DNA of 64,000 nucleotides from a virus. Its lineage: Duplodnaviria; Heunggongvirae; Uroviricota; Caudoviricetes. The stretch lies in the IMG/VR virus record IMGVR_UViG_3300027836_000006. One strand, written 5' to 3'. The notes beneath the pieces are model-generated. The model was not told the DNA's origin. It ran no database searches and worked only from the letters and a program-made list of their open reading frames with translations. Below, piece after piece: positions 1,600 to 24,655 of the stretch. The position numbers were made by a program, and so were the translations under genes. Positions within the stretch are counted from its first letter, which is position 1. Every line of letters begins with the position of its first letter.

Positions 1600-1629
1600 A
1601 TACACATACTAGCAAAACAGGAGCATGAA

Positions 1630-1830: not shown

Positions 1831-1839
1831 GGAGCTATT

Positions 1840-2307: not shown

Positions 2308-2328
2308 CACCTGAGTTGATGTTATAAT
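2300..2328 (+). promoter_or_regulatory. sigma70-like promoter: TTGACT-N17-TATAAT
   Basis: TTGACT at 2300-2305 overlaps the TAA stop of the phosphatase. TATAAT at 2323-2328. Confidence 0.6.
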
Positions 2329-2355
2329 TATACATTAAACAGTGAAAGGTACAAA

Positions 2356-2526: not shown

Positions 2527-2541
2527 AGAAAGGAGCATAAT

Positions 2542-3147: not shown

Positions 3148-3155
3148 GGAGTAGT

Positions 3156-3617: not shown

Positions 3618-3630
3618 AATACGCAGTTTA

Positions 3631-3656
3631 ATAGGGCCTTTGGGCCCTATTTTTTT
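3631..3656 (+). terminator. rho-independent terminator
   Basis: Perfect 8-bp stem atagggcc/ggccctat with a tttg loop, followed by a T6 run. Confidence 0.75.
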
Positions 3657-3753
3657 GACTTAAAATACGCACATTTTGCGAGTGCGGTTTTCTCCGATTG
3701 AATAAATACACTATAACAATCTAGCATTAGATTAAAGTATATGGAGATAGCAC

Positions 3754-4827: not shown

Positions 4828-4885
4828 TACTATCCTTACAAAAAGATAACTACTAAGTCTATAAAGGCTTAAAGGTTATCTTTTT

Positions 4886-5641
4886 ATGAGAATTTGTATT
4901 ATTGGGCACCCCCGTTCGCGAAGTACTTACCTACTTAATGTAATTGCGGACTATTTCAAAATACCTGAAATCCCACACCACCAAATTAAAAATGTGTATA
5001 ACGTACTCCCAGTGGAGTGTTATCACTCATCGCAATGGGAACCAATTTGGGATCCTAACTTCCCTACATCTATTAAAGAAGAATTTTTAATCAAGTTCAA
5101 CGAGTTCCAGTCTAAGATAAAAAATAAAGCTAGTTTTATTATCAAAGTTCACCCATCGCAGTTAGCTTACTTTCCAGCAAGCGGTCAGCTAATAGATTTT
5201 GACTTGTTTGGTTTTCAACAATACAATCAAATTTACTTTACTGTACGTAAGAATCACATTGATGCAATTTGTAGTTACTTCATTGCTAACAAAACAGACA
5301 AGTGGCACTACGGCCGTGGCGACAAACCTATGGCTATTGAAGCGCAACCTATGTCTAATAATATTGCTGTTATGATTTATATTTGGCACGACTTGATAAG
5401 TCAAGAGCTAAAGAAGTACCTAGACAATAAAAATATAGCATGGAGTGAAATCTATTACGAAGACATGACTGATTACGTAAAAGACCATTATCCAACAGGA
5501 TTAGCTAACACTATAGAAACTGGGTACGACTATAAACAACTTATAACCAACTACGACGAGTTGACTGACACATATAATATACTTAAAGATAAAGTTACAG
5601 CATTGTTTTACGAACATAATCCGGATTTGAAGAATGTTTAA
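4886..5641 (+). CDS. sulfotransferase (PAPS-dependent, Sulfotransfer_3-like)
   Basis: N-terminal 5'-PSB loop IIGHPRSRSTYLLNVI, compared with the consensus IVGmPRSGTTLL. Confidence 0.6.
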   Translation: MRICIIGHPRSRSTYLLNVIADYFKIPEIPHHQIKNVYNVLPVECYHSSQWEPIWDPNFPTSIKEEFLIKFNEFQSKIKNKASFIIKVHPSQLAYFPASGQLIDFDLFGFQQYNQIYFTVRKNHIDAICSYFIANKTDKWHYGRGDKPMAIEAQPMSNNIAVMIYIWHDLISQELKKYLDNKNIAWSEIYYEDMTDYVKDHYPTGLANTIETGYDYKQLITNYDELTDTYNILKDKVTALFYEHNPDLKNV

Positions 5642-6731
5642 ATTTAGCGAGCTAAAACAATTACACTTAGAAATAACAAACAACTGCCAAGCCAGTTGTC
5701 CTATGTGTGCGAGGAATGTTCGCGGGGGTGTTGATAATCCGCTGTTGACTATTAACAACTGGACCTTAGATACATTTAAAATAATCGTATCTCCAGAAGT
5801 ACTATCACAAATCGATGTGTTTTATTTTTGCGGTAACTTTGGAGATCCAATACTAAACAATGAATTGATAGACATGTGCGAGTATGCTGTTAGCGTTGAT
5901 CCAACAGTTACTATTAACATACACACAAATGGCGGAGCCCGTAATGTCGATTGGTGGATAAAGTTAGCAAAGACATTGCCAGTAAATCATCGTGTAGTGT
6001 TTGCCATTGACGGCTTAGAAGATACTCATTCTATCTATCGCATCGGTACATCATTTAATAAAGTAATAGAAAATGCTCGAGCATTTATCAATGCCGGTGG
6101 TAAAGCAGAGTGGGCATTTATAAGATTTAAGCACAACGAACATCAAGTAAATGATGTAAGACAGATGGCAACTGAGCTAGGGTTTGAAAATTTTACTATG
6201 AAAGATAGCTCACGCTTCTTTGATAGCGAGAAATATGCTGTATTAAACAAACAAGGATCTGTAATTTATAATTTAGAGCCTTCGACGTACAGCGAAATTA
6301 AATTTATTAGTACAGACATTATTAAACAACATAAGAAATTAGTAGCCGAAAGTGAAATACAATGTCAGGCATTGGATTTAAAAGAAGTATATATAGATGC
6401 GTTTGGTAGGATTTTTCCGTGTTGTTGGATTGCTAGTACACCATATACTTCCTTCGACGAGGACATTAGATTTGCTCCAGTGCGTTATCAAATGCTAGAC
6501 GAATACAATGAACTGATTAACGCATTAGGCGGGATAGATAAATTAGATGCTACTCAGCATACAATTAAAGATATTGTTGATTCGCCGGAGTATCAATCAG
6601 TGTGGTACAAGTTTTGGGCTGAGAAGAAATTAACTGTATGTGCTAGAGCTTGTGGTGTTCTTAAGACGCCAGTATTTTCAAAACCTTCAGAGCAATATAC
6701 TAGTAAAGAAATACTTCACCAGCGTCCGTAA
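5634..6731 (+). CDS. radical SAM enzyme, family A (paralog of 19678..20757)
   Basis: CxxxCxxC motif in ITNNCQASCPMC. FCGNFGDP is GGEP-like. Shared block NARAFI(N/A)AGG...HNEHQV. C-terminal CC...C cluster. Confidence 0.7.
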   Translation: MFKFSELKQLHLEITNNCQASCPMCARNVRGGVDNPLLTINNWTLDTFKIIVSPEVLSQIDVFYFCGNFGDPILNNELIDMCEYAVSVDPTVTINIHTNGGARNVDWWIKLAKTLPVNHRVVFAIDGLEDTHSIYRIGTSFNKVIENARAFINAGGKAEWAFIRFKHNEHQVNDVRQMATELGFENFTMKDSSRFFDSEKYAVLNKQGSVIYNLEPSTYSEIKFISTDIIKQHKKLVAESEIQCQALDLKEVYIDAFGRIFPCCWIASTPYTSFDEDIRFAPVRYQMLDEYNELINALGGIDKLDATQHTIKDIVDSPEYQSVWYKFWAEKKLTVCARACGVLKTPVFSKPSEQYTSKEILHQRP

Positions 6732-9664: not shown

Positions 9665-10519
9665 TTAAATACTCGCATTGCCACATCGTACACTACTGAA
9701 TGGTTACAAACAGATAGACCTAGTCCGTTGGACGACAATCAAATTGAGCAGTTAATACAAGATGTATTGTGTGGGAAGCTAGATAAGGATATTACTGATA
9801 ACGTTTATACTAGTTTTAAACAAGAGACAACGAATTGGATTTTTAACTCAAAATTAAATACCTTAACAGGGTTTGATAGTTTTAATCGTGTTGATATTAT
9901 AAACGGATGTACACAGTTTATAGATAATTTGTATATGCAAGGGCCTGTACAAGTATTGCGAGGCGATTACAGATACCATGAAAGATTAGAATTAGCGTAT
10001 GTAAAAGATGTGGGCTCGCTAATTCCAGACATTCCTTTAATTATAGCAATGCCGTTCCCTAGCATTGGTGCTCCACATCAGGATATGGAGGAGATTTTAC
10101 ATGAGTGTAAAATTAAAAACATTGCAGTACATATTGACGGTGCTTGGATTAGTTGTTGCCGTGACATTACTTTTGACTTTAGCCATGTGGCTATTAGATC
10201 CGTTGGCATCAGTCTTAGCAAAGGTCTTGGTCTCGGGTGGAACAGGATAGGATTACGTTGGACCAAAGATAGCAAGGCAGATTCGATTACAATAATGAAC
10301 GATTTCAAAATGAACAATCGTGCGCTGGCAATGATTGGATTGCATTTTATTCGTAACTTGCCAACGGACTACTTGTGGTTGACACACGGCGATAGATATT
10401 ATACAATATGTAAAGACTTCGGCTTGACTCCCACTAACAGTATATATTTGGCACTACAAAATGGACAGCCTGTTGGAGTCAGTCCACTGATAAGGTATTT
10501 GGAAAATGAATCAAGTTAG
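9647..10519 (+). CDS. PLP-dependent aminotransferase-fold protein (paralog of 8021..8938); the start may instead be the ATG at 9662
   Basis: SLSKGLGLGWNRIG and HIDGAW. The ATG at 9662 mirrors the divergent gene's start within the inverted repeat. Confidence 0.6.
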   Translation: MVNISMLNTRIATSYTTEWLQTDRPSPLDDNQIEQLIQDVLCGKLDKDITDNVYTSFKQETTNWIFNSKLNTLTGFDSFNRVDIINGCTQFIDNLYMQGPVQVLRGDYRYHERLELAYVKDVGSLIPDIPLIIAMPFPSIGAPHQDMEEILHECKIKNIAVHIDGAWISCCRDITFDFSHVAIRSVGISLSKGLGLGWNRIGLRWTKDSKADSITIMNDFKMNNRALAMIGLHFIRNLPTDYLWLTHGDRYYTICKDFGLTPTNSIYLALQNGQPVGVSPLIRYLENESS

Positions 10520-11225
10520 CATACCGTTTGATAAGACGTGGACAGATGTTGCTGTAAGTCTAAGCGGTGGCGCAGATAGTGCCTTACTAGCCTACATGGT
10601 GTGCGAGCTTGCTAAAGAACATAATGTCACAGTACACATTATTAATCATGTGCGTATGTGGAAAACACGCCCGTGGCAACAACATGATGCTGATCGAGTT
10701 TACAATTGGTTATTCCAGCGTTTCTATCATACAACATTTAGACGGCATACTAACTTCATTGCCCCAGACATAGAATACGGTAATATAGGACCCAATCTAA
10801 CTGATGAGTATGGCAAGAAGGTAAGTGGTGATAATATACAACAACGTGCCTATGCTGAATTTATTTGCCATAAACATAATGTAAGTGCTTATTTTAATGC
10901 AGTAACACGTAATCCTAGGCAAGCAATGTTTAACGGTATGCTTGAACGTGATTTAGAACCAACCGAAGAAAATAAACATTTAGAATACATGATTCATATG
11001 GGTCGTGTTGCCAGTCATCCTTTTCGATTCGTAGATAAATCGTGGGTACTAGCACAATATAAAAAATTAGAAATTATGGATTTGTTTGAGCTGACAAGAA
11101 GTTGTGAAGGCGAATTCAAAGAAATTAACTACGCAACATATACACCTGGTCAATACGTACCAGTATGCGGGGAATGTTTTTGGTGTAAAGAAAGAGATTG
11201 GGCTATAGCATGTCAAGACTCGTAA
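10506..11225 (+). CDS. PP-loop ATP pyrophosphatase, QueC-like
   Basis: SLSGGADSA matches the SGGxDS PP-loop. The C-terminal Cys cluster CGECFWC resembles the QueC zinc site. 239 aa. Confidence 0.6.
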   Translation: MNQVSIPFDKTWTDVAVSLSGGADSALLAYMVCELAKEHNVTVHIINHVRMWKTRPWQQHDADRVYNWLFQRFYHTTFRRHTNFIAPDIEYGNIGPNLTDEYGKKVSGDNIQQRAYAEFICHKHNVSAYFNAVTRNPRQAMFNGMLERDLEPTEENKHLEYMIHMGRVASHPFRFVDKSWVLAQYKKLEIMDLFELTRSCEGEFKEINYATYTPGQYVPVCGECFWCKERDWAIACQDS

Positions 11226-11839
11226 CGTTTGGATGTTCTTATACCTATGGCAAGGGATTAGAAGATTGCCAGGATTGGCCATTACTACATAAAAGTATGC
11301 ACAGTTCTAAGCCAAGTCAGTTAGGTTGGCCAAATCAACTAAGTGACAAGTTAGGTGTAGAGCTAGTGAACAAGTCTTACCCAGGATCAAGTAATTTAGA
11401 AATACTGTATGAGATACTACAATTTGATTTTAAACAAGATGATATAGTAGTTATAATGTGGTCTCACTACTTACGTGATATGCTGTTCACACGATTCTTC
11501 AAATGGATATTTTTAAGACGTAGGTTAGGTGCTTGGAAGAATACAGGTGTAGCAAAGAAATGGGTGGAGCAGATGAGTGAGCGAGATTACTCTATGCGTA
11601 CATGGATTTACCTACAACACGCTAGTCTATACTTAAACAGTAAAGGTATAAAATATATACACTACCCTGCGGCACCACACGAGTTACGTGAATACGAATT
11701 TCCAAGAATCCATGTAGACAATTTACACATGGATGGTATAGAATGGATTGACAATGCGTTAGATGGTAGTCATCCTGGACCGGCAACACATGCTAAATTA
11801 ACGGATAAGATTTTTAATATTTTAAATGAATCAAAGTAA
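11210..11839 (+). CDS. hypothetical protein, possibly an SGNH/GDSL-like hydrolase fold
   Basis: N-terminal TFGCSYTYG is GDS(L)-like but with Cys in place of Asp. Start moved to the ATG at 11210; the ORF track gives 11198. Confidence 0.35.
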   Translation: MSRLVTFGCSYTYGKGLEDCQDWPLLHKSMHSSKPSQLGWPNQLSDKLGVELVNKSYPGSSNLEILYEILQFDFKQDDIVVIMWSHYLRDMLFTRFFKWIFLRRRLGAWKNTGVAKKWVEQMSERDYSMRTWIYLQHASLYLNSKGIKYIHYPAAPHELREYEFPRIHVDNLHMDGIEWIDNALDGSHPGPATHAKLTDKIFNILNESK

Positions 11840-13073
11840 AACATTTTGTATGCATCCTTTTACAGGATTAGCAACTAGAGAAGACGGAGCAATTTGTGCT
11901 TGTTGTCGTAGCCACCCTGTTGGCAATATACAGTACCAGAGCTTAGAAGAGATTTGGAATAATAGTACAATGCGCCGCATACGGCGACAAGTGTTAAATG
12001 ACGAGCGTCCTAAAGAATGCGAACCTTGCTTTAGTTTAGAAGACCAGGGTGTTGAAAGTTTGCGTATGCGACATATAGCAGGCAAAATACCAGAAGCACG
12101 TATTAACTTGTATCCTAATACTCCATTACAAGAAGTAATGCCATTTGAGATTCCTACTATGGAACTTAAACTAAACAACTTGTGTAATCTAAAATGCCGG
12201 ATGTGCCATCCAATGGATAGTACTAGCTGGAATGACTGGAGTGAAGTTAAAGACTTTTACAAAGCAGAAGGCAACATCATGTATGCTATTGTGGAAGAAC
12301 ATAACTTAGAACAGAAGCCACACCTTGATAAGTTTCAAGACAATCCTGAATGGTGGGCTAGTTTAGAAAAACTACTTCCGTACTTTAGACGTGTAGAGTT
12401 TGCTGGCGGCGAACCTCTAATGGATCCACAGCACTATCGCATACTAGATATGCTTGCTCCTTACGGTGATCAAATTGAGATTAAGTACGCAACTAACTTA
12501 ACCACATTAGGTAAGAGTAATCGTACCATTTGGGAATATTGGCCTAAGTTTAAATCAGTAGCAGTCAATGTAAGCATTGACGGCATTTGGGCAAGTTATG
12601 ATTACATACGGGGTAACGGTAGCTTTATTGAAATCGTAAACAACATTAAACAGGTACAGACTATTACAAACATTAGTCGTATTGTTGGCGCGGTAACTGT
12701 ACAAGTTAGTAATGTGCTTATACTAGACAAGATGATAGAATATTTCTTAAATGATTTAGGAATTGTATTTCATACGCATCGTGTAGAATATCCTAAAGTA
12801 TTATCAGCACAAGTATTACCTGCTGAATTAAAACTATTGGCTATACAACGATTAGAAGCAGTAAAGTCCCGTATTCCAGAATTTAAGATGGTTAAAGAAC
12901 ATCCTGAGCTATATGGTTACACACTTGGGCAGATACAGGATAACATCAACTACTTGAGGGCAAGAGATCAAAGCGACAAGTGGACAGATTGTATAGAATT
13001 TAATCGACGTTTAGATAAAACTAGAGACCAAGACTTTGTACAAGTTACACCAGAATTTAAGGATTACGTATAA
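11826..13073 (+). CDS. radical SAM enzyme, family B, with an N-terminal Cys-rich extension
   Basis: CNLKCRMC (CxxxCxxC) and FAGGEPL. The N-terminus has FCMHPF...GAICACC...CEPC. Paralogs are at 15561 and 39183. Confidence 0.7.
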   Translation: MNQSKTFCMHPFTGLATREDGAICACCRSHPVGNIQYQSLEEIWNNSTMRRIRRQVLNDERPKECEPCFSLEDQGVESLRMRHIAGKIPEARINLYPNTPLQEVMPFEIPTMELKLNNLCNLKCRMCHPMDSTSWNDWSEVKDFYKAEGNIMYAIVEEHNLEQKPHLDKFQDNPEWWASLEKLLPYFRRVEFAGGEPLMDPQHYRILDMLAPYGDQIEIKYATNLTTLGKSNRTIWEYWPKFKSVAVNVSIDGIWASYDYIRGNGSFIEIVNNIKQVQTITNISRIVGAVTVQVSNVLILDKMIEYFLNDLGIVFHTHRVEYPKVLSAQVLPAELKLLAIQRLEAVKSRIPEFKMVKEHPELYGYTLGQIQDNINYLRARDQSDKWTDCIEFNRRLDKTRDQDFVQVTPEFKDYV

Positions 13074-13690
13074 TGGCAACAATGCATCTTACTACACCTC
13101 ATGCTGAGTTAACGTTTATTCACATAACTAAAACAGGCGGTACAAGTGTAACTCACTGGTTAGACGAACTGCCTAATATTACATCTTATAAAAAGTGGAA
13201 GCATCACGAAAGTTCTGAAATGCTAGTCCAGGACAATCACGTATCTCCTTTTATTTTTACAGTAGTACGAAATCCGTGGGATAGAGTTGTCAGCGGCTAT
13301 CATTACTTAACACAACGTAAAGGAATGTATTTTCCAAAGTCGCACGATTACTTTTGGGAAACTGTTGAGAAGTTAACAGGCAATACTGATTTATCATTTG
13401 ATGACTGGGTTAAGTATCTGCCTGAATTTAAAATGCATCCTAATGACTGGTCAAGTGCTGGCACACCACAGTCTGATTACATACGTCCTGGAATTGACCA
13501 CGTAGTTAAATTTGAAAGCATTGACAGCGACTTTGTAGTTGTACAAGAGCTATGTAATGACTTTCGCCCGTTGCCAAAAACTAACGAGTCGCAACGTGAT
13601 TTACATCACGGCTATTATTCCGATGCTAATAGAATGTTAGTTGCTAAGATGTTTGAAAAAGATATCGACTTGTGGAAGTACTCATTCTAA
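13073..13690 (+). CDS. sulfotransferase (Sulfotransfer_2-like)
   Basis: HITKTGGTS compared with IPKTGGTS. RNPWDRVVSGYHY compared with RdPveRlvSay. Confidence 0.55.
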   Translation: MATMHLTTPHAELTFIHITKTGGTSVTHWLDELPNITSYKKWKHHESSEMLVQDNHVSPFIFTVVRNPWDRVVSGYHYLTQRKGMYFPKSHDYFWETVEKLTGNTDLSFDDWVKYLPEFKMHPNDWSSAGTPQSDYIRPGIDHVVKFESIDSDFVVVQELCNDFRPLPKTNESQRDLHHGYYSDANRMLVAKMFEKDIDLWKYSF

Positions 13691-14580
13691 TGGAACACGT
13701 AACTAGCCGCTGGCCACATCAAGACAGTATTAAGATCGAATGGAATCTTGGTAAGCGTTGTAATTACGACTGTAGTTACTGCCCTAGTAGCATACATGAT
13801 AACTCTAGTCCACATACTGATATAGAAATTCTCAAAGCAACTGTGGACAAACTAATGACACTGGGCAAACCTATACGTTTAAGTTTTACAGGCGGAGAAC
13901 CTACAGTACATCCTAAGTTTCCAGAACTTATTAAGTATTGTAATCATGTTGGCATTAGTTGGATCAGTGTAACAACTAATGGAACATTACCTTACGAATT
14001 TTACGCTAGTCTAAATGTAGATCAATACGTCTTTAGTCTACATTTAGAATACAATTGGCAACGTGTTTACGATACTATGAGTAAAGTTGCCGACCGTACT
14101 AATTTTAGAATCGTAGCACAGATCATGTGCCATCATGATCATATGCCTGCGGCTTATACGTTATTTGCTAGATGCTTGACTGCTCATATTCCAGCTACAT
14201 TAAGACGAATACGTTGGACAGAAGGTGATCATGATTTGTTTGACGACATGCGGTATCACCCTGACGACTTAAACTGGATTAAGAAACAAGAAGCCACTGT
14301 TGAAGGAAATTGTGTTATAGATGGCAAGCAAATTATACATGCCAATGACGTCATTAAACTACATTTAAACAAGTTTAAAGATTGGTCTTGTAATGCCGGG
14401 ATTGAAAGTCTAATGATAAATTGGGATGGCGAAGTACATCGTGCTACTTGCCGTGTTGGCGGTAGCTTAGGTAACATATACTCAGGGGCACTTAGTATTA
14501 ACGTAGACCCTGTAATCTGTGATAGGAATTATTGTACGTGTGCCGCTGACATTCCTCTCACTAAGATTAAACTTGGTTAA
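13690..14580 (+). CDS. radical SAM enzyme, family C (SPASM/twitch-like C-terminus)
   Basis: CNYDCSYC, FTGGEP, and a C-terminal W.CNAG...C...C motif. Start placed at the ATG overlapping the upstream TAA (TAATG); the ORF track gives 13672. Confidence 0.7.
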   Translation: MEHVTSRWPHQDSIKIEWNLGKRCNYDCSYCPSSIHDNSSPHTDIEILKATVDKLMTLGKPIRLSFTGGEPTVHPKFPELIKYCNHVGISWISVTTNGTLPYEFYASLNVDQYVFSLHLEYNWQRVYDTMSKVADRTNFRIVAQIMCHHDHMPAAYTLFARCLTAHIPATLRRIRWTEGDHDLFDDMRYHPDDLNWIKKQEATVEGNCVIDGKQIIHANDVIKLHLNKFKDWSCNAGIESLMINWDGEVHRATCRVGGSLGNIYSGALSINVDPVICDRNYCTCAADIPLTKIKLG

Positions 14581-15564
14581 ATGTGTCTCAGGCATACACC
14601 AGCAAGCAGTATTAGGACATTTGGTTGACTTTAATGGCGGATTAAATTCTGTTGTAAAATTAGGACTTGTTATATTAAAGTAAGTGTCTAACCCAAATAG
14701 TTTAGCATTACAGGCTCCTGTAATGTTACCAGTCCAGTTCATATAAATTCTGTCTAAGCCAATAGCACAATCCCAGTCTTTAAAACTATTCCAACCACGA
14801 TTGAAGTACGCACCTGGAGATGCTCGCATAGTTGAGCCGTCTTCTAAAGTAGCAGTACTGTCAAAGAATCTAAGCTCGTCTTTAATCAAGTGTCTATTGC
14901 GCCAGAACCATAATAGGTTAGGCAAACGTTTTAAGTCACGTTTTAAATACTTTAACTGTTCTGGTGTGTAGCGAGGCACAGATGGATCGGCAGTATTATC
15001 AATAACTTCGGCAGTCATAATAAACCATCTGTTACGACTGTGCTTTTTCATTAGCTCGATGTCGCGTATTCCTTTGTCCCAATGATTAGGATCCATCAAT
15101 ACTTTAACAGTAGTCTTTGTGCCGCGTTCGTGTAATGCGTCGGCTACTGCTATAATGTGTGTTACATCACCTTGGGCAATATGATGTGTTAAATGTGCGT
15201 TGTCAATAAGATGAGCATTCTCTTCCCACCATCGTAAGGTTCTAGATCCATTCGATATCAAAGAAAAATATACGTTATTGTCTTGTTTTATTTTGGCAAT
15301 GAATTCTGCCAAGTGCCTCCATAAAGTCGGCTCTCCGCCAGCCATAGACAAATGTACTTTGTCCTTGCCTAACTTCTCTTTGTAAAAATTAATCAAATGT
15401 CGAAAATTTCCTACTACCAAATCTAAGTCATCGGAAAATTTATGTGTTCCTGCGTTGCTACCAGGAAAACAATATTCACATTTAAAATTACAATAGTTAC
15501 TAGGATCCCAACCTATCTCTAAAACGTTGGATGATTTGTTAGATACAATCTTAACTGGTTTCAT
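14482..15564 (-). CDS. radical SAM enzyme, family C
   Basis: CNFKCEYC, MAGGEP, and a C-terminal DWDCAIG...C...CWC motif. It overlaps the convergent paralog by 99 nt. Confidence 0.7.
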   Translation of the reverse strand: MKPVKIVSNKSSNVLEIGWDPSNYCNFKCEYCFPGSNAGTHKFSDDLDLVVGNFRHLINFYKEKLGKDKVHLSMAGGEPTLWRHLAEFIAKIKQDNNVYFSLISNGSRTLRWWEENAHLIDNAHLTHHIAQGDVTHIIAVADALHERGTKTTVKVLMDPNHWDKGIRDIELMKKHSRNRWFIMTAEVIDNTADPSVPRYTPEQLKYLKRDLKRLPNLLWFWRNRHLIKDELRFFDSTATLEDGSTMRASPGAYFNRGWNSFKDWDCAIGLDRIYMNWTGNITGACNAKLFGLDTYFNITSPNFTTEFNPPLKSTKCPNTACWCMPETHLTKFNLSERNVSGTRTIIPITDYRVYVNTKCP

Positions 15565-16982
15565 AGTAAATGGGCTAGCTCAGGAAATGTTTCTTTAAAG
15601 TCGGTGCCACGTTGTTTGTCCATAGTACTAATATATTCGCCAAAATCTGGCAACAAGTTAGTATGGTCTTCAGCGTCCATCCAATCTAATATACCCTCCC
15701 AACGCTTCCAACCGTATGGGTTAGTTACCCAGAACTCCCTGTCCTGCGTATAGTTAATCCACAACCAAGATTTAAGTTCTTCAAACAATTCACGTACATG
15801 TTGCTTGTCTTCTAGGGGGAGCACACGCAAACTTAACCAGGTAGGTATCCATAACAAGTGTACACCAATTAGGCCGCCACCCATTACTTGCCCACTGGCA
15901 TTTTTGTCAAAGTTAATCTTCTTAAAGCCTTGTTCAACCTTCCATTTAATAAATTCAGGAACGTGCTTAATGTTTAATATTTGTACAGCAAACGCAATAT
16001 TTGTTTGTATGTTGTCTGGAGCAGTATCTAGTATTTGTAAATTTTTAACAATAGTTTGCCATTCGCTTGGATAGCGTATGTAATGATTACGTTTACCCAT
16101 TCCATCTAAGCTAAACCCTACTTTGACTTTTTTGAATTGCTTCCATATATCTATAATAGCATCGTTAATTAACAAACCGTTTGTGTTATATCTTAATGTG
16201 ATATTGTTTGCGTAACCACGTTTAATAATTTCTTCTAAGAACATCTTATGCTCTTTAATTAATAAAGGCTCGCCACCGGCAAAGTATAATTGCTTAATGT
16301 TAGGAATCTGGTCAAATATTTCTTCCCAGAATTTTGGATTTTCATGCCAGTAATTATTAAAGTCGCTAGCAGTCCAATCCATTTGTTTTTTAATTAAAGG
16401 ACTTTGTATCAGTGGATAAATCTTTTTATGTTCAGGCACCCACATGCTAGAATCATGCGGGCTACACATGATACATTTTAAATTACATGTATGGCCTAAT
16501 CTTAGATCAAGGTACTGTAATTTGTAAGGTACAGATCCATCTTCTTCTGTTTCGCGAATAAGCTGTTCTATATCTATCTTTTCTTCTAAATGCCAAGTGC
16601 CGGTTTCCCAAATGCGCTTACTAGCAATACCTTCTTGCTCTTCTTTAAAACATTTAGTACATGACGCAGGAACTTCACCAGCTAACATAGTCTTACGTAC
16701 ACTGCGCATATAGTCATTATTAAATGCTTCTGTAGGCAGATCGTGGGCAAAATTAGCGGGTTTGCCATCTTCCATCTTAACAAGTCCAACAGTGTAGTCT
16801 CCACTATCAGCGCCGCTGGCATTAGCTACACAGCATATACGCATATCGCCGTTGGGCCGAGTTGCTAAGTGTATCCAAGGAAGTACACAAAAACTTTTGC
16901 TACCTGAGATACTTTCAATTTGTTTTTGCCAAGTACCTATTTGTGTTTCTTCTGGTTGTAACCAAAATACCTTTTGTGTCAT
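15561..16982 (-). CDS. radical SAM enzyme, family B
   Basis: CNLKCIMC and FAGGEPLL. N-terminal FCVLPWIHL...RICC...CTKC extension. Confidence 0.7.
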   Translation of the reverse strand: MTQKVFWLQPEETQIGTWQKQIESISGSKSFCVLPWIHLATRPNGDMRICCVANASGADSGDYTVGLVKMEDGKPANFAHDLPTEAFNNDYMRSVRKTMLAGEVPASCTKCFKEEQEGIASKRIWETGTWHLEEKIDIEQLIRETEEDGSVPYKLQYLDLRLGHTCNLKCIMCSPHDSSMWVPEHKKIYPLIQSPLIKKQMDWTASDFNNYWHENPKFWEEIFDQIPNIKQLYFAGGEPLLIKEHKMFLEEIIKRGYANNITLRYNTNGLLINDAIIDIWKQFKKVKVGFSLDGMGKRNHYIRYPSEWQTIVKNLQILDTAPDNIQTNIAFAVQILNIKHVPEFIKWKVEQGFKKINFDKNASGQVMGGGLIGVHLLWIPTWLSLRVLPLEDKQHVRELFEELKSWLWINYTQDREFWVTNPYGWKRWEGILDWMDAEDHTNLLPDFGEYISTMDKQRGTDFKETFPELAHLL

Positions 16983-18986: not shown

Positions 18987-19694
18987 ATGACAAATTTAAA
19001 AAATTGGAACCATTATTACAACTTAGAAGGCACTGAGCAAGTTCGTGCCAATTTGGTATATACTCCGTATGTTAGTCCAGACAAGAAAACATTTTGTATG
19101 AGCTTTAACCGTGAAGAAGGATACCACATTTATGTACATGAGAATTTTAAATGGACAGACGAACTGCTATCAGACCGTTTTAACAGAGAACTGCTATTCT
19201 ATGCTCGAGCATCCAAAGTTGTGCCAACATTAGATCTAGTTGACGTAGATACAGCAAACAGACGAATATTTTTAAAATGGCACGGTGATGATTTTTATAT
19301 GCAAGGCTTAACAGCCAATGGCTACGATAACGTACTACCTAATTGGCAAGAGCAATGGACTAATCTTATTACTACTATGTGGGACACTAACATTTTGAAA
19401 TGTAGTTTACATCCAAATAGTTGGGTTGCAGTTGACGGTGTTCTAACGCCATTCAACTGGTTCTTTTGCTTTGACAAAGCTGAGACTGGAATTACCATAC
19501 GAAGTTTGTTATTACAAATAAGCGACAGCCGACAGGATAAACTAATAGAAGTGCTGAACAGCGCAGGCTTAGATATCGATAAACCATACGCAAGTGTTGA
19601 TTTACAAAAAGTTGCGTTAGAGAGTTTTAAAAGCAATTACCCAGAAGAATTAATCAACAACCTTATAAAGAAATATAATGACCTTCTATCATAA
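18987..19694 (+). CDS. hypothetical protein (235 aa)
   Basis: ORF overlaps the next gene by 17 nt (19678-19694); no motif recognised. Confidence 0.45.
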   Translation: MTNLKNWNHYYNLEGTEQVRANLVYTPYVSPDKKTFCMSFNREEGYHIYVHENFKWTDELLSDRFNRELLFYARASKVVPTLDLVDVDTANRRIFLKWHGDDFYMQGLTANGYDNVLPNWQEQWTNLITTMWDTNILKCSLHPNSWVAVDGVLTPFNWFFCFDKAETGITIRSLLLQISDSRQDKLIEVLNSAGLDIDKPYASVDLQKVALESFKSNYPEELINNLIKKYNDLLS

Positions 19695-20757
19695 AATTAG
19701 AGAAATCGAAGTAGAGAATAGCGGTATATGTAATGCCGCTTGCCCGCAGTGTATTCGTGAAATTAAACCAGGAGATCATTCTTGGTTTGAGGAAGGCTAC
19801 TTACAAGCAGATGTGTTTGATAGAATACCATCTACTGTTTACGAGAATTTAGAAATATTACGATTTGCTGGATCTATAGGCGATCCGTGTGCCGCTCCAA
19901 ACTTTATTGAGGTAGTCAAAAAAGTCCGTGCCAAAGGTAAATTTAAAATTAACGTAAGCACAAACGGCGGTATGAAAAGTCCTGATTGGTGGACTAGGCT
20001 TGCCCACGCACTAGGGCCTGATGACGAAGTACAATTTGCGTTAGACGGATTAGAAGATACTAACAACATATATCGTGTAAATGTAAGTTGGAAGAAGGCG
20101 ATGGAAAATGCTCGAGCATTTATTGCCGCAGGCGGTACTGCGTTATGGCAATTTATTGTGTTTCAACATAACGAACATCAAGTTGAAGATGGACGTACAC
20201 TTGCTGAGCAAATGGGATTTAAGAAATTCATAGTTAAACCTAGTCATAGATTTTTAATGGATGACATCATGGGTGTACAGCGTTACGGCACTGGCGGGGT
20301 ACTTATACAACCCCCAGGACAGAAAGAGATGATACACAAAGTAATGTTCCAACCTAAAGTTGTTAAAGTCGATGATTTATTAAAGAATTCGAACAATAGT
20401 TGTATTAAGTGTTATGCTAAAGAGCATCAAGATGTTTATATAGATTTTACAGGTCATGTGTTTCCTTGTTGTTTTATGGCTTCAAACTTTTGGGCACAGA
20501 AACACGTATCAGTTCCAGATGGTTGGAAACAGTTATGGAACGATGCCGGCGGTGATTTAATAGACTTACACAAACAAGACTGGGATACTATTGTACAAGG
20601 CGAATTTTTTAACCAAGTTGAGAAACGATGGGACAAGGATTACAACAATGGTCGCTTGTTAATATGTTCTGGAGTGTGTTCTTCCTTTGAAGGAAGATTT
20701 AATGACCCTGCCGAATTTGGCAAGTTAGCTACTACGGAATTTAAACAGTCCCAATAA
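19678..20757 (+). CDS. radical SAM enzyme, family A
   Basis: GICNAACPQC and FAGSIGDP. Shared NARAFIAAGG...HNEHQV block. C-terminal CCF...C...C. Confidence 0.7.
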   Translation: MTFYHKIREIEVENSGICNAACPQCIREIKPGDHSWFEEGYLQADVFDRIPSTVYENLEILRFAGSIGDPCAAPNFIEVVKKVRAKGKFKINVSTNGGMKSPDWWTRLAHALGPDDEVQFALDGLEDTNNIYRVNVSWKKAMENARAFIAAGGTALWQFIVFQHNEHQVEDGRTLAEQMGFKKFIVKPSHRFLMDDIMGVQRYGTGGVLIQPPGQKEMIHKVMFQPKVVKVDDLLKNSNNSCIKCYAKEHQDVYIDFTGHVFPCCFMASNFWAQKHVSVPDGWKQLWNDAGGDLIDLHKQDWDTIVQGEFFNQVEKRWDKDYNNGRLLICSGVCSSFEGRFNDPAEFGKLATTEFKQSQ

Positions 20758-21334
20758 TCATATAGCGGGTGTAAAGTGGCAATTCCAATTCACCAGCCCA
20801 CTTTACAGTACCGAGATTACATTGTTGTTTAAACTCATCTAAACTGTTGGCAATTCTTATATGTTCAGGTATGTTATAGTTGTTACTTTGTAATACAAAT
20901 AATGTGTTATGCGGCATGCCACTTAACCACAAGTCGTATTGGTCCTGTGTAATATGTTCACAGCTAGTGTTTATAACTACATCAGCATCACTACGGATAG
21001 CACACATATCAGCAGTAACAGCACGAAACTTGCCGTATATCTCCTCTGCTTTATTCATCATATTAGCAATAGGCTCACATGCCGGATCAATGTCTACACT
21101 GCGAATACTAGTAACTGGCACATCGCTTTGGAACAGCATACTAGCAAGTACACCATTCCAGCCGCCGTGTATGTCCACCGTAACAAACTTATTGACATGT
21201 TTGCGTAATTGTTTACACAACCAATCTTTGCTTTTCATCTGCCCTGCCCAGAAACAATCTAATGTTCGCATTGGGTCAGGACTTTGCCTTACGGCTTGCA
21301 TCCAATAGTGAAAGTGATCTAAATTAATATTCAA
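20741..21334 (-). CDS. SAM-dependent methyltransferase-like protein
   Basis: Class-I methyltransferase motif order: VDIHGGWNG (motif I), SVDIDP (acidic post-I), ADVVINT (motif II). Confidence 0.45.
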   Translation of the reverse strand: MNINLDHFHYWMQAVRQSPDPMRTLDCFWAGQMKSKDWLCKQLRKHVNKFVTVDIHGGWNGVLASMLFQSDVPVTSIRSVDIDPACEPIANMMNKAEEIYGKFRAVTADMCAIRSDADVVINTSCEHITQDQYDLWLSGMPHNTLFVLQSNNYNIPEHIRIANSLDEFKQQCNLGTVKWAGELELPLYTRYMIIGTV

Positions 21335-21531
21335 TTACGTCCCCATTTAATTCGATCCCATACTCGTTCATGAATAAAGTATAGTACGGTATTTGTAATT
21401 AATTGTATACTTGCTATACTACCAGCAACAACAAAATTTCCAGATATTAAATAACTAATTCCAAACGTAGCACCACTACCTGTTATACGCCAGGTAATGG
21501 TTTTTACTAAGCTACGGCTGGGCTTATCCAT
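21331..21531 (-). CDS. small membrane protein (66 aa), DUF2061-like
   Basis: Two predicted transmembrane helices. From memory (not verified), the LYFIHERVWDRIKW motif resembles DUF2061, a family I recall seeing next to sulfate-activation genes. Confidence 0.4.
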   Translation of the reverse strand: MDKPSRSLVKTITWRITGSGATFGISYLISGNFVVAGSIASIQLITNTVLYFIHERVWDRIKWGRN

Positions 21532-22391
21532 TATTTCAAACCTAGTTCCTTGCGGATTTTTGTAGCAGAGATAGAGTGTGTAGCGTCATCAAATGTTTCT
21601 TGTTCGATTTTATAACCTACATCTCGACCATAGGTAATGTTTACAATGTTGGGTACAACTTGTATTTCATACTGTCCTTGGAATAGCGGATCTAAGTCAC
21701 GTTTAATATAACTCTTAACTTGATCTATAGCAAACGGGTTGCTTCCTTGCCAGCCTTGGCAATCACGTATTTGAATAACTACTTGACCTGTTTTGGCAAT
21801 AGAACGTTCAAATAATTTACGATGGCCTTCATGCCAAGGTTGCCACCTACCTAACATTTGTACCGTCTCTTTTTGCCAATCAAATGTAGGACGACGTTTA
21901 TTTTCTAAAATGTGCTGGCCCACAAACTCGACCCACTTTTCAGCATTTTGTTCGATTATCCTAAAATCATATTGCTCGGGTGGAACGAATGCTTTGTTAG
22001 TATCGTCAAAGCGGCCAGCGTCGATTGTGTCGATCCAGATAGTCCAGTCGGCTTTAAAGTTGTTACGCATTTCAACTAGCGGTGCTACAAAATCACAGAT
22101 AACAAAATCACCTGTACAGTTGATAGCAAAATCAAACATTCTGATACTTTGACGAATGCGCCCTTCACGGCTAAAATCCCAGTCGTTGAATCTTTTACGA
22201 ACATCATCGGCATTGAACCAATCCACTCCTACTTTCAACATGTCAGGGCCCGGGATGCCTTCATAATTTAACAACCTATTTGGATTTACTTTATATAAAT
22301 CCCCATTTTCTTCTATGTATTTTTTAAGTCGTTCAGCAAAATAGGTTTTGCCCGAACCAGGTAATCCCATAATTAAGATTCTTTTAGCCAT
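21531..22391 (-). CDS. PAPS-synthase-like fusion: N-terminal APS kinase-like P-loop domain plus C-terminal minimal HxxH sulfurylase/nucleotidyltransferase domain
   Basis: GLPGSGKTYFA Walker A. ADDVRKRF...DWDFSREGRIRQSIR compares with the CysC block LDGDNVRHGL...DLGFSDADRKENIRRV. C-terminal QPWHEGHRKL compares with the ATP-sulfurylase QTRNPMHRAHREL. The protein ends ...SATKIRKEL. Confidence 0.55.
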   Translation of the reverse strand: MAKRILIMGLPGSGKTYFAERLKKYIEENGDLYKVNPNRLLNYEGIPGPDMLKVGVDWFNADDVRKRFNDWDFSREGRIRQSIRMFDFAINCTGDFVICDFVAPLVEMRNNFKADWTIWIDTIDAGRFDDTNKAFVPPEQYDFRIIEQNAEKWVEFVGQHILENKRRPTFDWQKETVQMLGRWQPWHEGHRKLFERSIAKTGQVVIQIRDCQGWQGSNPFAIDQVKSYIKRDLDPLFQGQYEIQVVPNIVNITYGRDVGYKIEQETFDDATHSISATKIRKELGLK

Positions 22392-23362
22392 TTTATTTCC
22401 TTTGGTATCTTACTGTCAGCACTACTGACACATGTATTAGTTATACATTCTTGCGGGCTGTCAAATAATTTAAAGTTCGAAAGTGTACCTAATGGTTGGT
22501 CGTGACAACTATAACTACGTTTTACTTCCGTTCCTCTAATTATAACACTTTGGTATCCAGCGTTACAATTCCACCCACTAAACTTATTGAATCCAAATGC
22601 GTTAAATCGCTCGGCTTGATCAAATAAGTGTTCTGTTCCATCTGCTTCGTATAATGCTATTTGATAAAGTTCCTCACCATTAGCACGTTGCGGAAATCCT
22701 TCACGCATCTTGTGTATCATATCATCAGTATAACCCTCAACAACCGCACTCGCTGTCGGATCACTTTGAGGCTTTAAAGTAACGTTGATTCCACGGTTGT
22801 GAAAACGTTCCATGCGTTCATAGAGTTCGTAGAACTTTTCTGGCACCATAACTTGATTGATTGTAACGTGTACTAGCTCGTATTGTAATTGTAAACACTT
22901 GTCGCCGAACTCTTGTTCCTTGGCAAACTCATCGTGGAAGCTGGCCGTAATACTACGGCGTTGTAATAGTTCAGTATTCTTACACCAAGTGTTCCACCAT
23001 TTGCTTCCCGGTGACAAATTGGTAGTCATGTGTATACTTTGGTAGGTACTTTCCTTTTCGTCCAAATGTTTAACTAAGTCTGGCAATTGTTTATAAGCAG
23101 TAGGCTCACCTCCGCTGAACGACCAATGGAACTGGTTAAACCCATTAGCTCGTGCTTGACGCTTAATCTCGTCTACAGTAGATTTATACACTTCAAGCGG
23201 CTGGTGATCCAATTTGTCGCTACGGGCATATGGCCAACAATAGCTACAACTATAATTACAGAATCTACCCAAAATCCAACTGGTAGAAAATAATGGTTTG
23301 GCTAGCATTGTGCGTTGCCCAAACCGTACAATATTTTGGAAAGGAATGGTTGAAAAGCTCAT
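22373..23362 (-). CDS. radical SAM enzyme, family C
   Basis: CNYSCSYC, FSGGEP, and a C-terminal GWNCNAG...C...C motif. Confidence 0.7.
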   Translation of the reverse strand: MSFSTIPFQNIVRFGQRTMLAKPLFSTSWILGRFCNYSCSYCWPYARSDKLDHQPLEVYKSTVDEIKRQARANGFNQFHWSFSGGEPTAYKQLPDLVKHLDEKESTYQSIHMTTNLSPGSKWWNTWCKNTELLQRRSITASFHDEFAKEQEFGDKCLQLQYELVHVTINQVMVPEKFYELYERMERFHNRGINVTLKPQSDPTASAVVEGYTDDMIHKMREGFPQRANGEELYQIALYEADGTEHLFDQAERFNAFGFNKFSGWNCNAGYQSVIIRGTEVKRSYSCHDQPLGTLSNFKLFDSPQECITNTCVSSADSKIPKEIKWLKES

Positions 23363-24267: not shown

Positions 24268-24444
24268 ATGACAAAAACAACATATACAGTCGAAGAACTA
24301 TTTGAAGACATTCCTGATGATCCAGATAATGTCATTATGAAACTACCTCCAGAAATTTGCGAAGCTCAGGGTTGGGTAGAAGGCGATACTATTAACATTA
24401 AAGTAGAAGATGGTGCTATGGTACTATCTAAGGTAAATGGCTAA
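24268..24444 (+). CDS. small AbrB/MazE (SpoVT-AbrB)-like DNA-binding protein (58 aa); not in the ORF track
   Basis: Translated by hand as ...LPPEICEAQGWVEGDTINIKVEDGAMVLSKVNG, resembling a swapped-hairpin AbrB motif. Its stop overlaps the infA start. Confidence 0.4.
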   Translation: MTKTTYTVEELFEDIPDDPDNVIMKLPPEICEAQGWVEGDTINIKVEDGAMVLSKVNG

Positions 24445-24655
24445 AGACGACATTATTGAACTAGTAGGAACTGTTGAAGAAGTATTACCTGGAAATATGT
24501 TTAGGGTTAAGATAGATCAAGCACCAAATCCAATTTTGTGCTACATGGGTGGTAAACTAAAACAACACAAGATTAGGATAATTTTGGGTGATAAGGTTAA
24601 GTTGGAAGTCAGTCCGTACGACCTTACAAAGGGCAGAGTAACTTATAGGTTGTAA
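24437..24655 (+). CDS. infA: translation initiation factor IF-1
   Basis: 72 aa. MAKDDIIELVGTVEEVLPGNMFRV...IRIILGDKVKLEVSPYDLTKGRV aligns along its length with E. coli IF-1 (S1-like OB fold). Confidence 0.8.
   Translation: MAKDDIIELVGTVEEVLPGNMFRVKIDQAPNPILCYMGGKLKQHKIRIILGDKVKLEVSPYDLTKGRVTYRL

What the first reader, a model, noticed from the sequence alone, without database searches (positions are those of the whole stretch)
21331..22391. Minimal PAPS-synthase-like fusion with a DUF2061-like partner: the phage may make its own sulfate donor
The N-terminal half has a Walker A motif plus the APS-kinase-specific D-x-V-R...D-x-x-F-S...R...I-R block. The C-terminal ~130 aa carry a P-W-H-E-G-H-R-K-L element matching the ATP-sulfurylase P-M-H-R-A-H-R-E-L HxxH motif, but in a domain much smaller than a canonical ~380-aa sulfurylase. 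The kinase-then-sulfurylase order matches metazoan PAPS synthase rather than the bacterial CysDNC system. From memory (not verified), the adjacent 66-aa two-helix protein has a DUF2061-like ...HERVWDRIKW motif, and I recall that family occurring beside sulfate-activation genes.
Basis: partly seen in the sequence, partly recalled or inferred. Interest (0 to 1): 0.7.

Follow-up and report, generated by a model that had tools for sequence, protein, structure and literature searches.

The report
Compact phage PAPS-synthase candidate with DUF2061
A 286-residue phage protein joins a stripped-down APS kinase to a tiny NMN-adenylyltransferase-like domain that most likely activates sulfate, so the phage can probably make the sulfate donor PAPS for its own sulfotransferase; the same pair sits in SAR11-like and SAR86 bacteria, lineages the literature describes (SAR11/LD12) as lacking complete sulfate assimilation.

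Summary
On the minus strand, 21531-22391 encodes a 286-aa two-domain protein, and 21331-21531 encodes a 66-aa DUF2061 protein (Pfam E 4e-22) that starts inside the upstream stop codon.

The N-domain is a true APS-kinase relative. A family profile matches solved APS kinases at E 9e-16, and they are the top 19 fold hits. It keeps the catalytic Asp, both phosphosulfate arginines and both adenine-stacking aromatics, but has lost most of the mobile lid.

- The two domains are almost always fused or abutting, in either order, once with a canonical CysC.
- Sulfotransferases lie nearby in 33 of 80 related phage loci and in many bacterial loci.
- Canonical sat/cysDN motifs were found in none of the loci checked.
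- In one SAR11-like operon the pair follows sulfite reductase, PAPS reductase and DUF2061, filling the ATP-sulfurylase slot.

Best reading (confidence about 0.6): a compact PAPS synthase with a new kind of sulfurylase domain. No biochemistry exists.

The parts
21531..22391 (-). 286-aa two-domain ORF (lid-less APS kinase + minimal nucleotidyltransferase), stop included
   Evidence: ORF. More than 8000 metagenomic clusters at up to 86% identity. AlphaFold2 model with pLDDT 90.9.
21897..22391 (-). N-domain, residues 1-165: APS-kinase-family P-loop kinase
   Evidence: Family profile against PDB: the top 17 hits are APS kinases, best E 9e-16. Foldseek top 19 hits are APS kinases.
22344..22367 (-). 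Walker A motif GLPGSGKT (residues 9-16)
   Evidence: Sequence and coordinates. K15 is invariant in alignment A1.
22227..22316 (-). About 30-aa insert (residues 26-55) specific to this phage clade, after the P-loop helix
   Evidence: Absent from nearly all other family members in A1. Short helices with pLDDT about 81-83.
22137..22214 (-). APS-binding block NADDVRKRFNDWDFSREGRIRQSIRM (residues 60-85): D62, R65, F73, R78, Q81
   Evidence: R65 and F73 are present in 46/46 sequences, R78 in 45/46, D62 in 43/46, Q81 in 44/46. The block aligns to DGDNxR...LGFS...R..N of canonical APS kinases.
21975..22013 (-). Remnant of the kinase lid, RFDDTNKAFVPPE (residues 127-139). The KGLYKKAR-type mobile lid is deleted.
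   Evidence: Alignment with the canonical CysC domain of P0358 shows about 24 residues missing between the FISP motif and this segment. Position 128 is F or Y in 45/46 sequences.
21534..21890 (-). C-domain, residues 168-286: minimal HxGH/ISxT nucleotidyltransferase, proposed sulfate adenylyltransferase
21822..21851 (-). GRWQPWHEGH (residues 181-190), the HxGH nucleotide-binding motif
   Evidence: G181, R182, Q184, P185, H187, G189 and H190 are at least 90% conserved. Aligns to NadM GRFQPFHKGH.
21762..21773 (-). QIRD with R209, a family-specific arginine at the end of strand 2
   Evidence: R in 45/46 sequences. No counterpart in the NMN adenylyltransferase alignments. Assigning it to sulfate binding is inference.
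21612..21632 (-). YGRDVGY (residues 254-260) with invariant R256, a family-specific loop
   Evidence: G255, R256 and G259 are invariant. Resemblance to the GRD loop of Sat comes from memory and was not tested.
21552..21572 (-). ISATKIR (residues 274-280), the ISxT/R motif of the nucleotidyltransferase superfamily
   Evidence: R280 is present in 46/46 sequences, S275 in 43/46.
21331..21531 (-). 66-aa DUF2061 small membrane protein, start overlapping the stop of the fusion
   Evidence: PF09834 E 4e-22. Directly downstream of the fusion in 14/80 related phage loci. Inside the cysI-cysH-DUF2061-kinase-NT operon of L180, 46% identical to the window protein.
13073..13690 (+). Phage sulfotransferase, the likely consumer of PAPS
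   Evidence: Sulfotransfer_2 E 1.2e-9, above cut-off. PHROG galactose-3-O-sulfotransferase. Sequence shows HITKTGGTS and RNPWDRVVS, read as the PAPS 5'- and 3'-phosphate-binding motifs (the motif assignment is from my knowledge of the family).
22373..23362 (-). Radical SAM ORF immediately upstream; its stop overlaps the fusion start by 19 nt
   Evidence: PF04055 E 5.8e-12. Same arrangement in L084-L086.
20741..21334 (-). 197-aa ORF of unknown family immediately downstream of DUF2061 (4-nt overlap)
   Evidence: No Pfam or NCBIfam hit. Homologues lie beside the fusion in L049, L056, L062, L069 and L076.

Best explanation
The 286-aa protein is a compact bifunctional sulfate-activating enzyme, that is, a PAPS synthase.

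Proposed mechanism:
- The C-terminal domain of about 112 aa transfers the AMP of ATP onto sulfate, giving APS. This step is inferred.
- The N-terminal lid-less APS kinase immediately phosphorylates the ribose 3'-OH of APS, giving PAPS. The homology and the retention of substrate-binding residues are shown; the activity is inferred.
- Tight fusion makes sense because APS formation is strongly unfavourable and must be pulled by the kinase (established knowledge of ATP sulfurylase).
- PAPS then feeds the phage's PAPS-type sulfotransferase at 13073-13690. Its acceptor is unknown.
- The translationally coupled 66-aa DUF2061 membrane protein is an accessory partner. It may tether the enzyme to the membrane or admit sulfate. 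This last point is weakly supported speculation.
For: (1) Kinase domain.
- The family profile hits solved APS kinases at E 9e-16, and the top 17 hits are all APS kinases.
- The Foldseek top 19 hits are APS kinases.
- D62, R65, F73, R78, Q81 and F/Y128 align with the catalytic Asp, the two phosphosulfate arginines, the Asn and the two adenine-stacking Phe of canonical enzymes. They are 93-100% conserved.

(2) Near-obligate pairing of the two domains.
- They are fused in both orders and also occur as split, overlapping genes.
- In a metagenome scan seeded on the NT domain alone, 74 of 80 loci have the kinase fused or nearby, most within a few bases; some of the six exceptions sit at contig ends.
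- All 6 stand-alone NT contexts examined have an APS-kinase(-like) gene abutting.

(3) Rosetta-stone fusion.
- P0358 is the small NT domain plus a canonical CysC (Pfam 212 bits; apsK equivalog 233.6 bits against a cut-off of 138.7).
- It was seen on 4 contigs from 4 samples, and relatives 71-86% identical to its NT domain also carry APS_kinase.

(4) Operon slot.
- The L180-L182 contigs (GC 28%) carry CbiX, uroporphyrinogen methyltransferase, CysI (705 bits against 457), CysH (244 bits against 154), DUF2061, kinase and NT in one overlapping operon.
- That operon contains no sat or cysDN.
- The kinase, NT and DUF2061 proteins there are 41%, 49% and 46% identical to the window's.

(5) Sulfotransferase linkage.
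- 33 of 80 related phage loci carry a sulfotransferase, nearly always on the same strand, 0-7 kb away; three abut the fusion and a fourth lies within 300 bp.
- 10 of 10 tested ORFs pass the Pfam cut-offs.
- The same sulfotransferase type occurs in only 10 of 50,697 phage records.
- TPR-sulfotransferases or shorter ones are adjacent in SAR116, SAR86, SAR11, Bradyrhizobium, Sphingomicrobium and other loci.
- Sulfotransfer_5 lies in polysaccharide clusters that carry the pair.
- TauE and a sulfatase flank another pair.

(6) Canonical Sat, CysD and CysN signature motifs were found in none of the roughly 170 loci checked.

(7) The window's sulfotransferase has a 3'-phosphate-binding motif, so it needs PAPS rather than APS (motif reading is mine).
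Against: - There is no enzymatic or genetic test of any family member.
- By sequence and fold the C-domain is closest to NMN adenylyltransferases, not to ATP sulfurylase. It lacks the Sat QxRNP motif.
- The kinase has lost most of the lid that closes over APS.
- Whole genomes could not be inspected, so hosts or phages may carry sat/cysDN elsewhere. The kinase might simply use host APS.
- The assimilatory operon context comes from one lineage only. None of 80 further metagenome loci had cysH nearby.
- The distant homologues in Sano-type phages (31-38% identity) sit beside NADAR and MazG genes, and no sulfotransferase was found in the 50 kb of the Sano genome searched.
- DUF2061 accompanies only 14 of 80 close phage relatives and 2 of 80 bacterial loci.
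- The 80 phage loci are related to each other, so their counts are not independent events.
Confidence: 0.6

Rival explanations
1. Only the N-domain works in sulfate activation. It is an APS kinase using APS made by host Sat/CysDN. The C-domain adenylylates some other acceptor or is regulatory or structural.
For: The C-domain has no Sat-specific motif and is closest to NMNAT and PPAT. Bacteria such as Bradyrhizobium that carry the fusion normally also have cysDN (my knowledge, not tested). Fungal ATP sulfurylases carry a non-catalytic APS-kinase-like domain, so regulatory domain partners have a precedent (established knowledge).
Against: All catalytic motifs of the transferase (HxGH, ISxT/R) plus two family-specific arginines are invariant or nearly so. 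The pairing persists through fusion, fission, permutation and exchange of the kinase for a canonical CysC. The L180 operon would lack a sulfurylase. No sat/cysDN motif was found in any locus.
Confidence: 0.2
2. The protein is an NAD-salvage or anti-defence enzyme: a NadR-like pair of nucleoside or nucleotide kinase and NMN adenylyltransferase that rebuilds NAD+ during infection.
For: The best sequence and fold matches of the C-domain are NadM/NadR NMN adenylyltransferases. Homologues in Sanovirus and Salvovirus phages lie next to a NADAR-domain gene and MazG.
Confidence: 0.06
3. The pair makes a different 3'-phospho-adenylyl donor (for example from selenate, phosphonate or another oxyanion) or an NDP-sugar in the manner of HldE (kinase plus adenylyltransferase) for surface-glycan synthesis.
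Against: Adenine-stacking and phosphosulfate-binding residues of APS kinase are conserved, which does not fit a sugar kinase. There is a fusion to a bona fide CysC. Those same clusters contain PAPS-type sulfotransferases.
Confidence: 0.08

Closest known systems
Bifunctional PAPS synthase (metazoan PAPSS1/2; bacterial Sat-CysC fusions such as Aquifex aeolicus 2gks)
   Same: One polypeptide joins an APS-kinase-family domain to a HxGH/ISxT-type adenylyltransferase domain. It is genomically coupled to sulfotransferases or PAPS reductase. In this phage protein the domain order, kinase then transferase, is that of metazoan PAPSS.
   Different: The protein is about 250-286 aa against about 550-630 aa. 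The transferase domain is about 112 aa, is NadM-like, and lacks the QxRNP motif and the PUA-like domain of Sat. The kinase lacks the mobile lid. Domain order is variable within the family, and split genes are common.
APS kinase CysC (PF01583, EC 2.7.1.25)
   Same: Same fold. Shares the Walker A motif, the catalytic Asp, both phosphosulfate arginines, both adenine-stacking aromatics and an FISP-like strand.
   Different: About 24 residues shorter between the FISP motif and the C-terminus, including the KGLYKKAR lid. The first Asp of DGD is usually Asn. This clade has a 30-aa insert after the P-loop helix. The window protein scores just under the Pfam cut-off.
NadM / archaeal NMN adenylyltransferase (MJ0541 1f9a; Francisella NadM-Nudix 2qjt)
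   Same: Closest relatives of the C-domain in sequence and fold. Shares the GR(F/W)QP(F/W)HxGH, NPF and (I)S(A/G)TxIR motifs.
   Different: Only 101 of the 164 residues of MJ0541 align. Two extra family-invariant arginines, R209 and R256, are present. The domain is almost never found without an APS-kinase partner.
Sat-type ATP sulfurylase (PF01747) and CysDN
   Different: No Pfam or NCBIfam hit to Sat. No RNP motif. About one third the size of Sat. Unrelated to the PP-loop/GTPase CysDN system.
Viral 'cysC' auxiliary metabolic genes reported in viromes
   Same: Public pipelines label close relatives of this gene 'adenylylsulfate kinase'. Surveys list viral CysC-family genes as sulfur-assimilation genes.
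   Different: One review lists the aquatic viral cysC as 'not validated'. The passages read describe neither the second domain nor the sulfotransferase linkage.

Membership tests
APS kinase (CysC, PF01583) | Significant profile match | tested here: met
   The window protein alone scores 20.9 bits against a Pfam cut-off of 21.1, just under. The family profile against solved APS kinases gives E 9e-16. Relatives score 29-61 bits in Pfam.
APS kinase (CysC, PF01583) | P-loop kinase fold closest to APS kinases | tested here: met
   The Foldseek top 19 PDB hits are APS kinases, with probability 1.00.
APS kinase (CysC, PF01583) | Substrate residues: catalytic Asp, two Arg binding the phosphosulfate, two aromatic residues stacking on adenine | tested here: met
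   D62, R65, R78, F73 and F/Y128 are 93-100% conserved in A1. The mapping to PAPSS1 residues was done by hand alignment.
APS kinase (CysC, PF01583) | Mobile lid (KGLYKKAR segment) closing over APS | tested here: not met
   About 24 residues are missing relative to the canonical CysC domain of P0358.
APS kinase (CysC, PF01583) | Phosphorylates APS to PAPS | not testable with these tools
   Needs an enzyme assay.
Sat-type ATP sulfurylase (PF01747) | Profile match to the Sat family | tested here: not met
   No Sat hit in Pfam or NCBIfam. Only insignificant motif-level matches to 2gks, at 2.8 and -3.7 bits.
Sat-type ATP sulfurylase (PF01747) | QxRNPxHxxH active-site motif | tested here: not met
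   The sequence is GRWQPWHEGH. Only P-x-H-x-x-H is shared, and that is common to the whole superfamily.
Sat-type ATP sulfurylase (PF01747) | N-terminal PUA-like domain and a catalytic domain of about 380 aa | tested here: not met
   The domain is about 112-119 aa with three strands and four helices assigned.
Sat-type ATP sulfurylase (PF01747) | Same fold superfamily | tested here: met
NadM / archaeal NMN adenylyltransferase | Curated family score | tested here: not met
   NF002243 scores 25.9 bits against a cut-off of 127; TIGR01527 scores 23.8 against 181.2.
NadM / archaeal NMN adenylyltransferase | Full-length fold including the NMN-binding part | tested here: not met
   101 of 164 residues of 1f9a align. 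Which segment is missing was judged by hand from a remembered sequence.
NadM / archaeal NMN adenylyltransferase | GRFQPFHxGH and SxTxIR motifs | tested here: met
   GRWQPWHEGH and ISATKIR are present.
DUF2061 (PF09834) | Pfam gathering score over the full model | tested here: met
   78.8 bits against 23.1, covering model positions 1-52 of 52.
Bifunctional PAPS synthase (functional class) | Genomic coupling to PAPS consumers (sulfotransferases, PAPS reductase) without a separate sulfurylase nearby | tested here: met
Bifunctional PAPS synthase (functional class) | Forms PAPS from ATP and sulfate | not testable with these tools
   Needs an assay or complementation.

The most novel reading that the evidence does not exclude
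The NadM-like mini-domain is a third, unrecognised class of ATP sulfurylase. Together with a lid-less APS kinase it forms the smallest known PAPS synthase. This enzyme is abundant in aquatic T4-like phages and in streamlined bacterioplankton (SAR11/LD12-like, SAR86, SAR116), so annotation pipelines would score sulfate activation as missing where it is present. In that case some populations described as unable to use sulfate could activate it, or even assimilate it (L180-type operon). DUF2061 may be the membrane partner or sulfate entry component.
Probability: 0.5. Interest if true: 0.85.

Novelty: new variant of a known kind. Interest (0 to 1): 0.75.

Why it matters
- **Enzymology.** To my knowledge only two ways of making APS are described: Sat and CysDN. 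A third, very small enzyme class would be new enzymology and a compact tool for PAPS regeneration.
- **Ecology.** Close relatives are labelled as viral 'cysC', and surveys read CysC-family genes as assimilation helpers. The data here tie the gene mainly to sulfation: sulfotransferases in phages and sulfated-glycan clusters in bacteria.
[quoted passage not shown] Contigs with 28% GC carry cysI, cysH, DUF2061, kinase and NT, and their NT is 65-71% identical to those of Pelagibacteraceae single-cell genomes. This makes the dogma directly testable.
- **DUF2061.** The result gives this family its first coherent functional neighbourhood.

Tried and rejected
- **DNA similarity.** The 5-kb region has no DNA match in the phage collection.
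- **Exact protein.** It is not on record. A DNA ligase search showed only distant cultured relatives.
- **First sulfotransferase co-occurrence test.** I used only the window's Sulfotransfer_2-type protein, found none in 80 related loci, and wrongly noted 'no linkage'. An HMM of Sulfotransfer_3-type proteins reversed this, giving 30-33 of 80 loci, confirmed by Pfam.
- **NAD-salvage reading.** Prompted by NadM similarity and the NADAR neighbour in Sano-type phages, I looked for supporting context. None turned up in the aquatic phage or bacterial loci examined.
- **HldE-like sugar activation.** Considered because of the polysaccharide clusters. Rejected because the APS-binding residues are conserved.
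- **Sano genome.** The 50 kb of it searched shows no sulfotransferase, so that distant clade remains unexplained.
- **Literature.** DUF2061 appears only in incidental mentions. I found no paper on an NMNAT-like sulfurylase.
- **Fold libraries.** afdb50 was unavailable. The viral fold library only returned 'APS kinase' annotations, such as phage phiRSL1.
- **Whole-genome test.** I could not test for presence or absence of sat/cysDN in carriers, for example SAR86 CP097973.1, because only 10-kb flanks are available.
Full report
**What is there.**
On the minus strand, 21531-22391 encodes a 286-aa protein and 21331-21531 a 66-aa protein. The stop of the first shares a base with the start of the second (TAATG). 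The 286-aa ORF overlaps the upstream radical SAM ORF (22373-23362) by 19 nt. The 66-aa ORF overlaps a downstream 197-aa ORF (20741-21334) by 4 nt. The four genes therefore look co-translated. The 66-aa protein is a full-length DUF2061 (PF09834, 78.8 bits, E 4e-22).

**Nature of the window.**
- It has no close cultured relative.
- It carries phage genes: a baseplate-wedge connector, tail-fibre pieces, DNA ligase and an endonuclease.
- Relatives of the 286-aa protein at 73-86% identity lie on viral contigs of up to 383 kb.
- In about 25 of those loci the gene sits just upstream of T4-type neck, gp15 and terminase genes.
- More than 8000 clusters of close homologues exist in freshwater and marine metagenomes. 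Some pipelines label them 'adenylylsulfate kinase'.

**N-terminal domain (residues 1-165).**
- The window protein alone just misses the Pfam APS_kinase cut-off (20.9 against 21.1 bits).
- A profile of 46 diverse family members (A1) matches solved APS kinases at E 9e-16 to 1e-10, and the 17 best hits are all APS kinases.
- An AlphaFold2 model (pLDDT 90.9) has APS kinases as its 19 best Foldseek hits.
- Several residues align with the catalytic Asp, the two phosphosulfate-binding Arg, the Asn and the two adenine-stacking Phe of canonical enzymes. They are conserved in A1 as follows: D62 43/46, R65 46/46, F73 46/46, R78 45/46, Q81 44/46, F/Y128 45/46 (mapping by hand alignment).
- What is missing is about 24 residues between the FISP-like strand and the C-terminal part, including the KGLYKKAR mobile lid.
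- This phage clade also has a 30-aa insert after the P-loop helix.
- I therefore treat it as a divergent, lid-less APS kinase.

**C-terminal domain (residues 168-286).**
- It is not a Sat-type sulfurylase by homology.
- Its best sequence matches are NadM/archaeal NMN adenylyltransferases (phmmer 2qjt E 0.003; profile 1f9a E 2.5e-11). NCBIfam scores are far below the cut-offs.
- It is thus the bare core of the HxGH/ISxT nucleotidyltransferase fold. Only 101 of the 164 residues of MJ0541 align.
- Besides the superfamily motifs, the family has two nearly invariant arginines of its own: R209 (45/46) and R256 in YGRDVGY (46/46). Their role in binding an anionic acceptor is inference.

**Why I still favour sulfate activation.**
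1. *The two domains are partners almost without exception.*
   - They occur fused kinase-NT and fused NT-kinase (P0320).
   - They occur preceded by a DUF4118 membrane domain (P0280).
   - They occur split into overlapping genes, as in SAR86.
   - A metagenome scan seeded only on NT motifs found the kinase fused or nearby in 74 of 80 loci, most within a few bases.
2. *In P0358 the small NT domain is fused to a canonical CysC.*
   - The scores are Pfam 212 bits and apsK 233.6 bits against a cut-off of 138.7.
   - It was found on four contigs from four samples.
   - Relatives 71-86% identical to its NT domain also carry APS_kinase.
3. *On contigs L180-L182 the pair closes one overlapping operon.*
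   - The contigs have 28% GC. Their NT is 65-71% identical to that of Pelagibacteraceae single-cell genomes.
   - The gene order is CbiX, uroporphyrinogen-III methyltransferase, CysI (705 bits against 457), CysH (244 bits against 154), DUF2061, kinase, NT.
   - Within that operon the step left without a gene is ATP sulfurylase, and the genes left without a function are NT and DUF2061.
   - These three proteins are 41%, 49% and 46% identical to the window's.
4. *Sulfotransferases recur next to the gene.*
   - In phages, 30-33 of 80 loci have one, nearly always on the same strand, 0-7 kb away. Three abut the fusion and a fourth lies within 300 bp.
   - 10 of 10 tested ORFs pass the Pfam cut-offs.
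   - That sulfotransferase type is found in only 10 of 50,697 phage records.
   - In bacteria, TPR-Sulfotransfer_3 proteins (E 1.6e-33) or shorter sulfotransferases are adjacent in SAR116, SAR86, SAR11, Bradyrhizobium, Sphingomicrobium and other loci.
   - Other copies lie in polysaccharide clusters with Sulfotransfer_5, or beside TauE and a sulfatase.
   - Three-gene modules of sulfotransferase, kinase and NT occur on contigs that also carry a phage Collar gene.
5. *No canonical sulfate-activation motif was found.* Sat, CysD and CysN signature motifs were absent from all of the roughly 170 loci held at that point.
6. *The window itself encodes a sulfotransferase at 13073-13690.* It matches Sulfotransfer_2 at E 1.2e-9. 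It has motifs I read as PAPS 5'- and 3'-phosphate-binding loops, so it needs the 3'-phosphorylated donor.

**Limits.**
- Nothing has been assayed.
- Whole genomes could not be examined, so sat/cysDN may exist elsewhere in carriers.
- The assimilatory operon comes from one lineage. None of 80 further loci had cysH nearby, though a SAR86-like locus has a PAPS_reduct-domain gene 3 kb away.
- The phage loci are related to each other, so counts overstate the number of independent events.
- Distant homologues in Sano-type phages (31-38% identity) sit beside NADAR and MazG. No sulfotransferase was found in the 50 kb of the Sano genome searched.

**DUF2061.**
- It follows the fusion directly in 14 of 80 close phage loci and in the window's own lineage.
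- It appears in 2 of 80 bacterial loci and in 5 of 80 metagenome loci.
- It sits inside the L180 operon.
- A preprint places a DUF2061 gene in a Mesorhizobium nod locus with nodH, nodP and nodQ. Other papers only list it as iron/Fur-responsive.
- It is an accessory rather than a core part. Whether it acts as a membrane tether or a sulfate-entry component is speculation.

**Comparison with what is known, and verdict.**
- The system works like a PAPS synthase.
- Its kinase half belongs to the APS-kinase family, but without the lid.
- Its transferase half is not a member of the Sat family and fails the curated NMNAT thresholds.
- I found no description of such an enzyme.
- One review lists the aquatic viral 'cysC' as 'not validated'. 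A lake virome study reads CysC-family genes as sulfur-assimilation helpers.
- I rate it a new variant of a known kind. My confidence is about 0.6 for the full two-step mechanism. From the evidence above I am more confident, without a formal estimate, that the locus serves sulfate activation or sulfation in some form.

Noticed in passing
window 5634-6731(+), 11826-13073(+), 13672-14580(+), 14482-15564(-), 15561-16982(-), 19678-20757(+), 22373-23362(-), 39183-40550(+): There are eight radical SAM ORFs in one 64-kb phage window, several with SPASM domains. They are interleaved with the sulfotransferase, a PP-loop-like ORF (10506-11225) and many ORFs of unknown family. This looks like a large modification pathway whose substrate is unknown. 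It may define what gets sulfated.
   Followed up: partly
window 24437-24655 (+): A phage-encoded homologue of translation initiation factor IF-1 (PF01176, 70.4 bits against a cut-off of 30.2). It is preceded by a 58-aa MazE/AbrB-like ORF at 24268-24444, which scores just under the cut-off.
   Followed up: partly
window 48660-60533 (+): A single 3957-aa ORF, followed by an ORF with a baseplate-wedge/tail-fibre connector N-terminus (60533-61576). It is probably a giant fibre or structural protein.
   Followed up: no
window 3754-4827 (+): This ORF has the N-terminal domain of the major tropism determinant (Mtd_N, E 5.5e-10). That raises the question of a diversity-generating retroelement target. 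No reverse transcriptase was looked for.
   Followed up: no
window 20741-21334 (-): This 197-aa ORF overlaps the end of DUF2061. It has no family hit, but homologues lie beside the fusion in five other phage loci (L049, L056, L062, L069, L076). By eye it has a Rossmann methyltransferase-like motif.
   Followed up: partly
L180-L182, about 1173-6348: Lake-metagenome contigs with 28% GC carry siroheme genes, cysI, cysH, DUF2061, kinase and NT in one operon. Their NT is 65-71% identical to those of Pelagibacteraceae genomes. This is at odds with the published view that LD12/SAR11 lack assimilatory sulfate reduction. The organism was not identified.
   Followed up: partly
L001-L003 and L173 (Sanovirus, Salvovirus and DLP6 phages): Distant homologues of the fusion (246 aa, 31-38% identity) lie next to a NADAR-domain gene, MazG and an annotated 'cysteine dioxygenase'. 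No sulfotransferase was found in the 50 kb of the Sano genome searched. Their role may differ from that of the aquatic family.
   Followed up: partly
window 22371-22391; L084-L088: Public gene calls for the same gene start at Met8 (279 aa). That removes the strand before the P-loop. The 286-aa start, which overlaps the upstream gene by 19 nt, is the one conserved in homologues.
   Followed up: yes
P0280 (395 aa, metagenome protein): In this protein a DUF4118 membrane domain is fused in front of the kinase-NT unit. This is a second hint, besides DUF2061, that the enzyme works at the membrane.
   Followed up: no
L097 8178-9011 and L098 4328-5131 (SAR11 single-cell genomes): ORFs with a CysQ/inositol-monophosphatase-type WxxDPxDGT motif lie within 10 kb of the fusion. 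They could recycle the by-product PAP. This rests on a motif match only.
   Followed up: no
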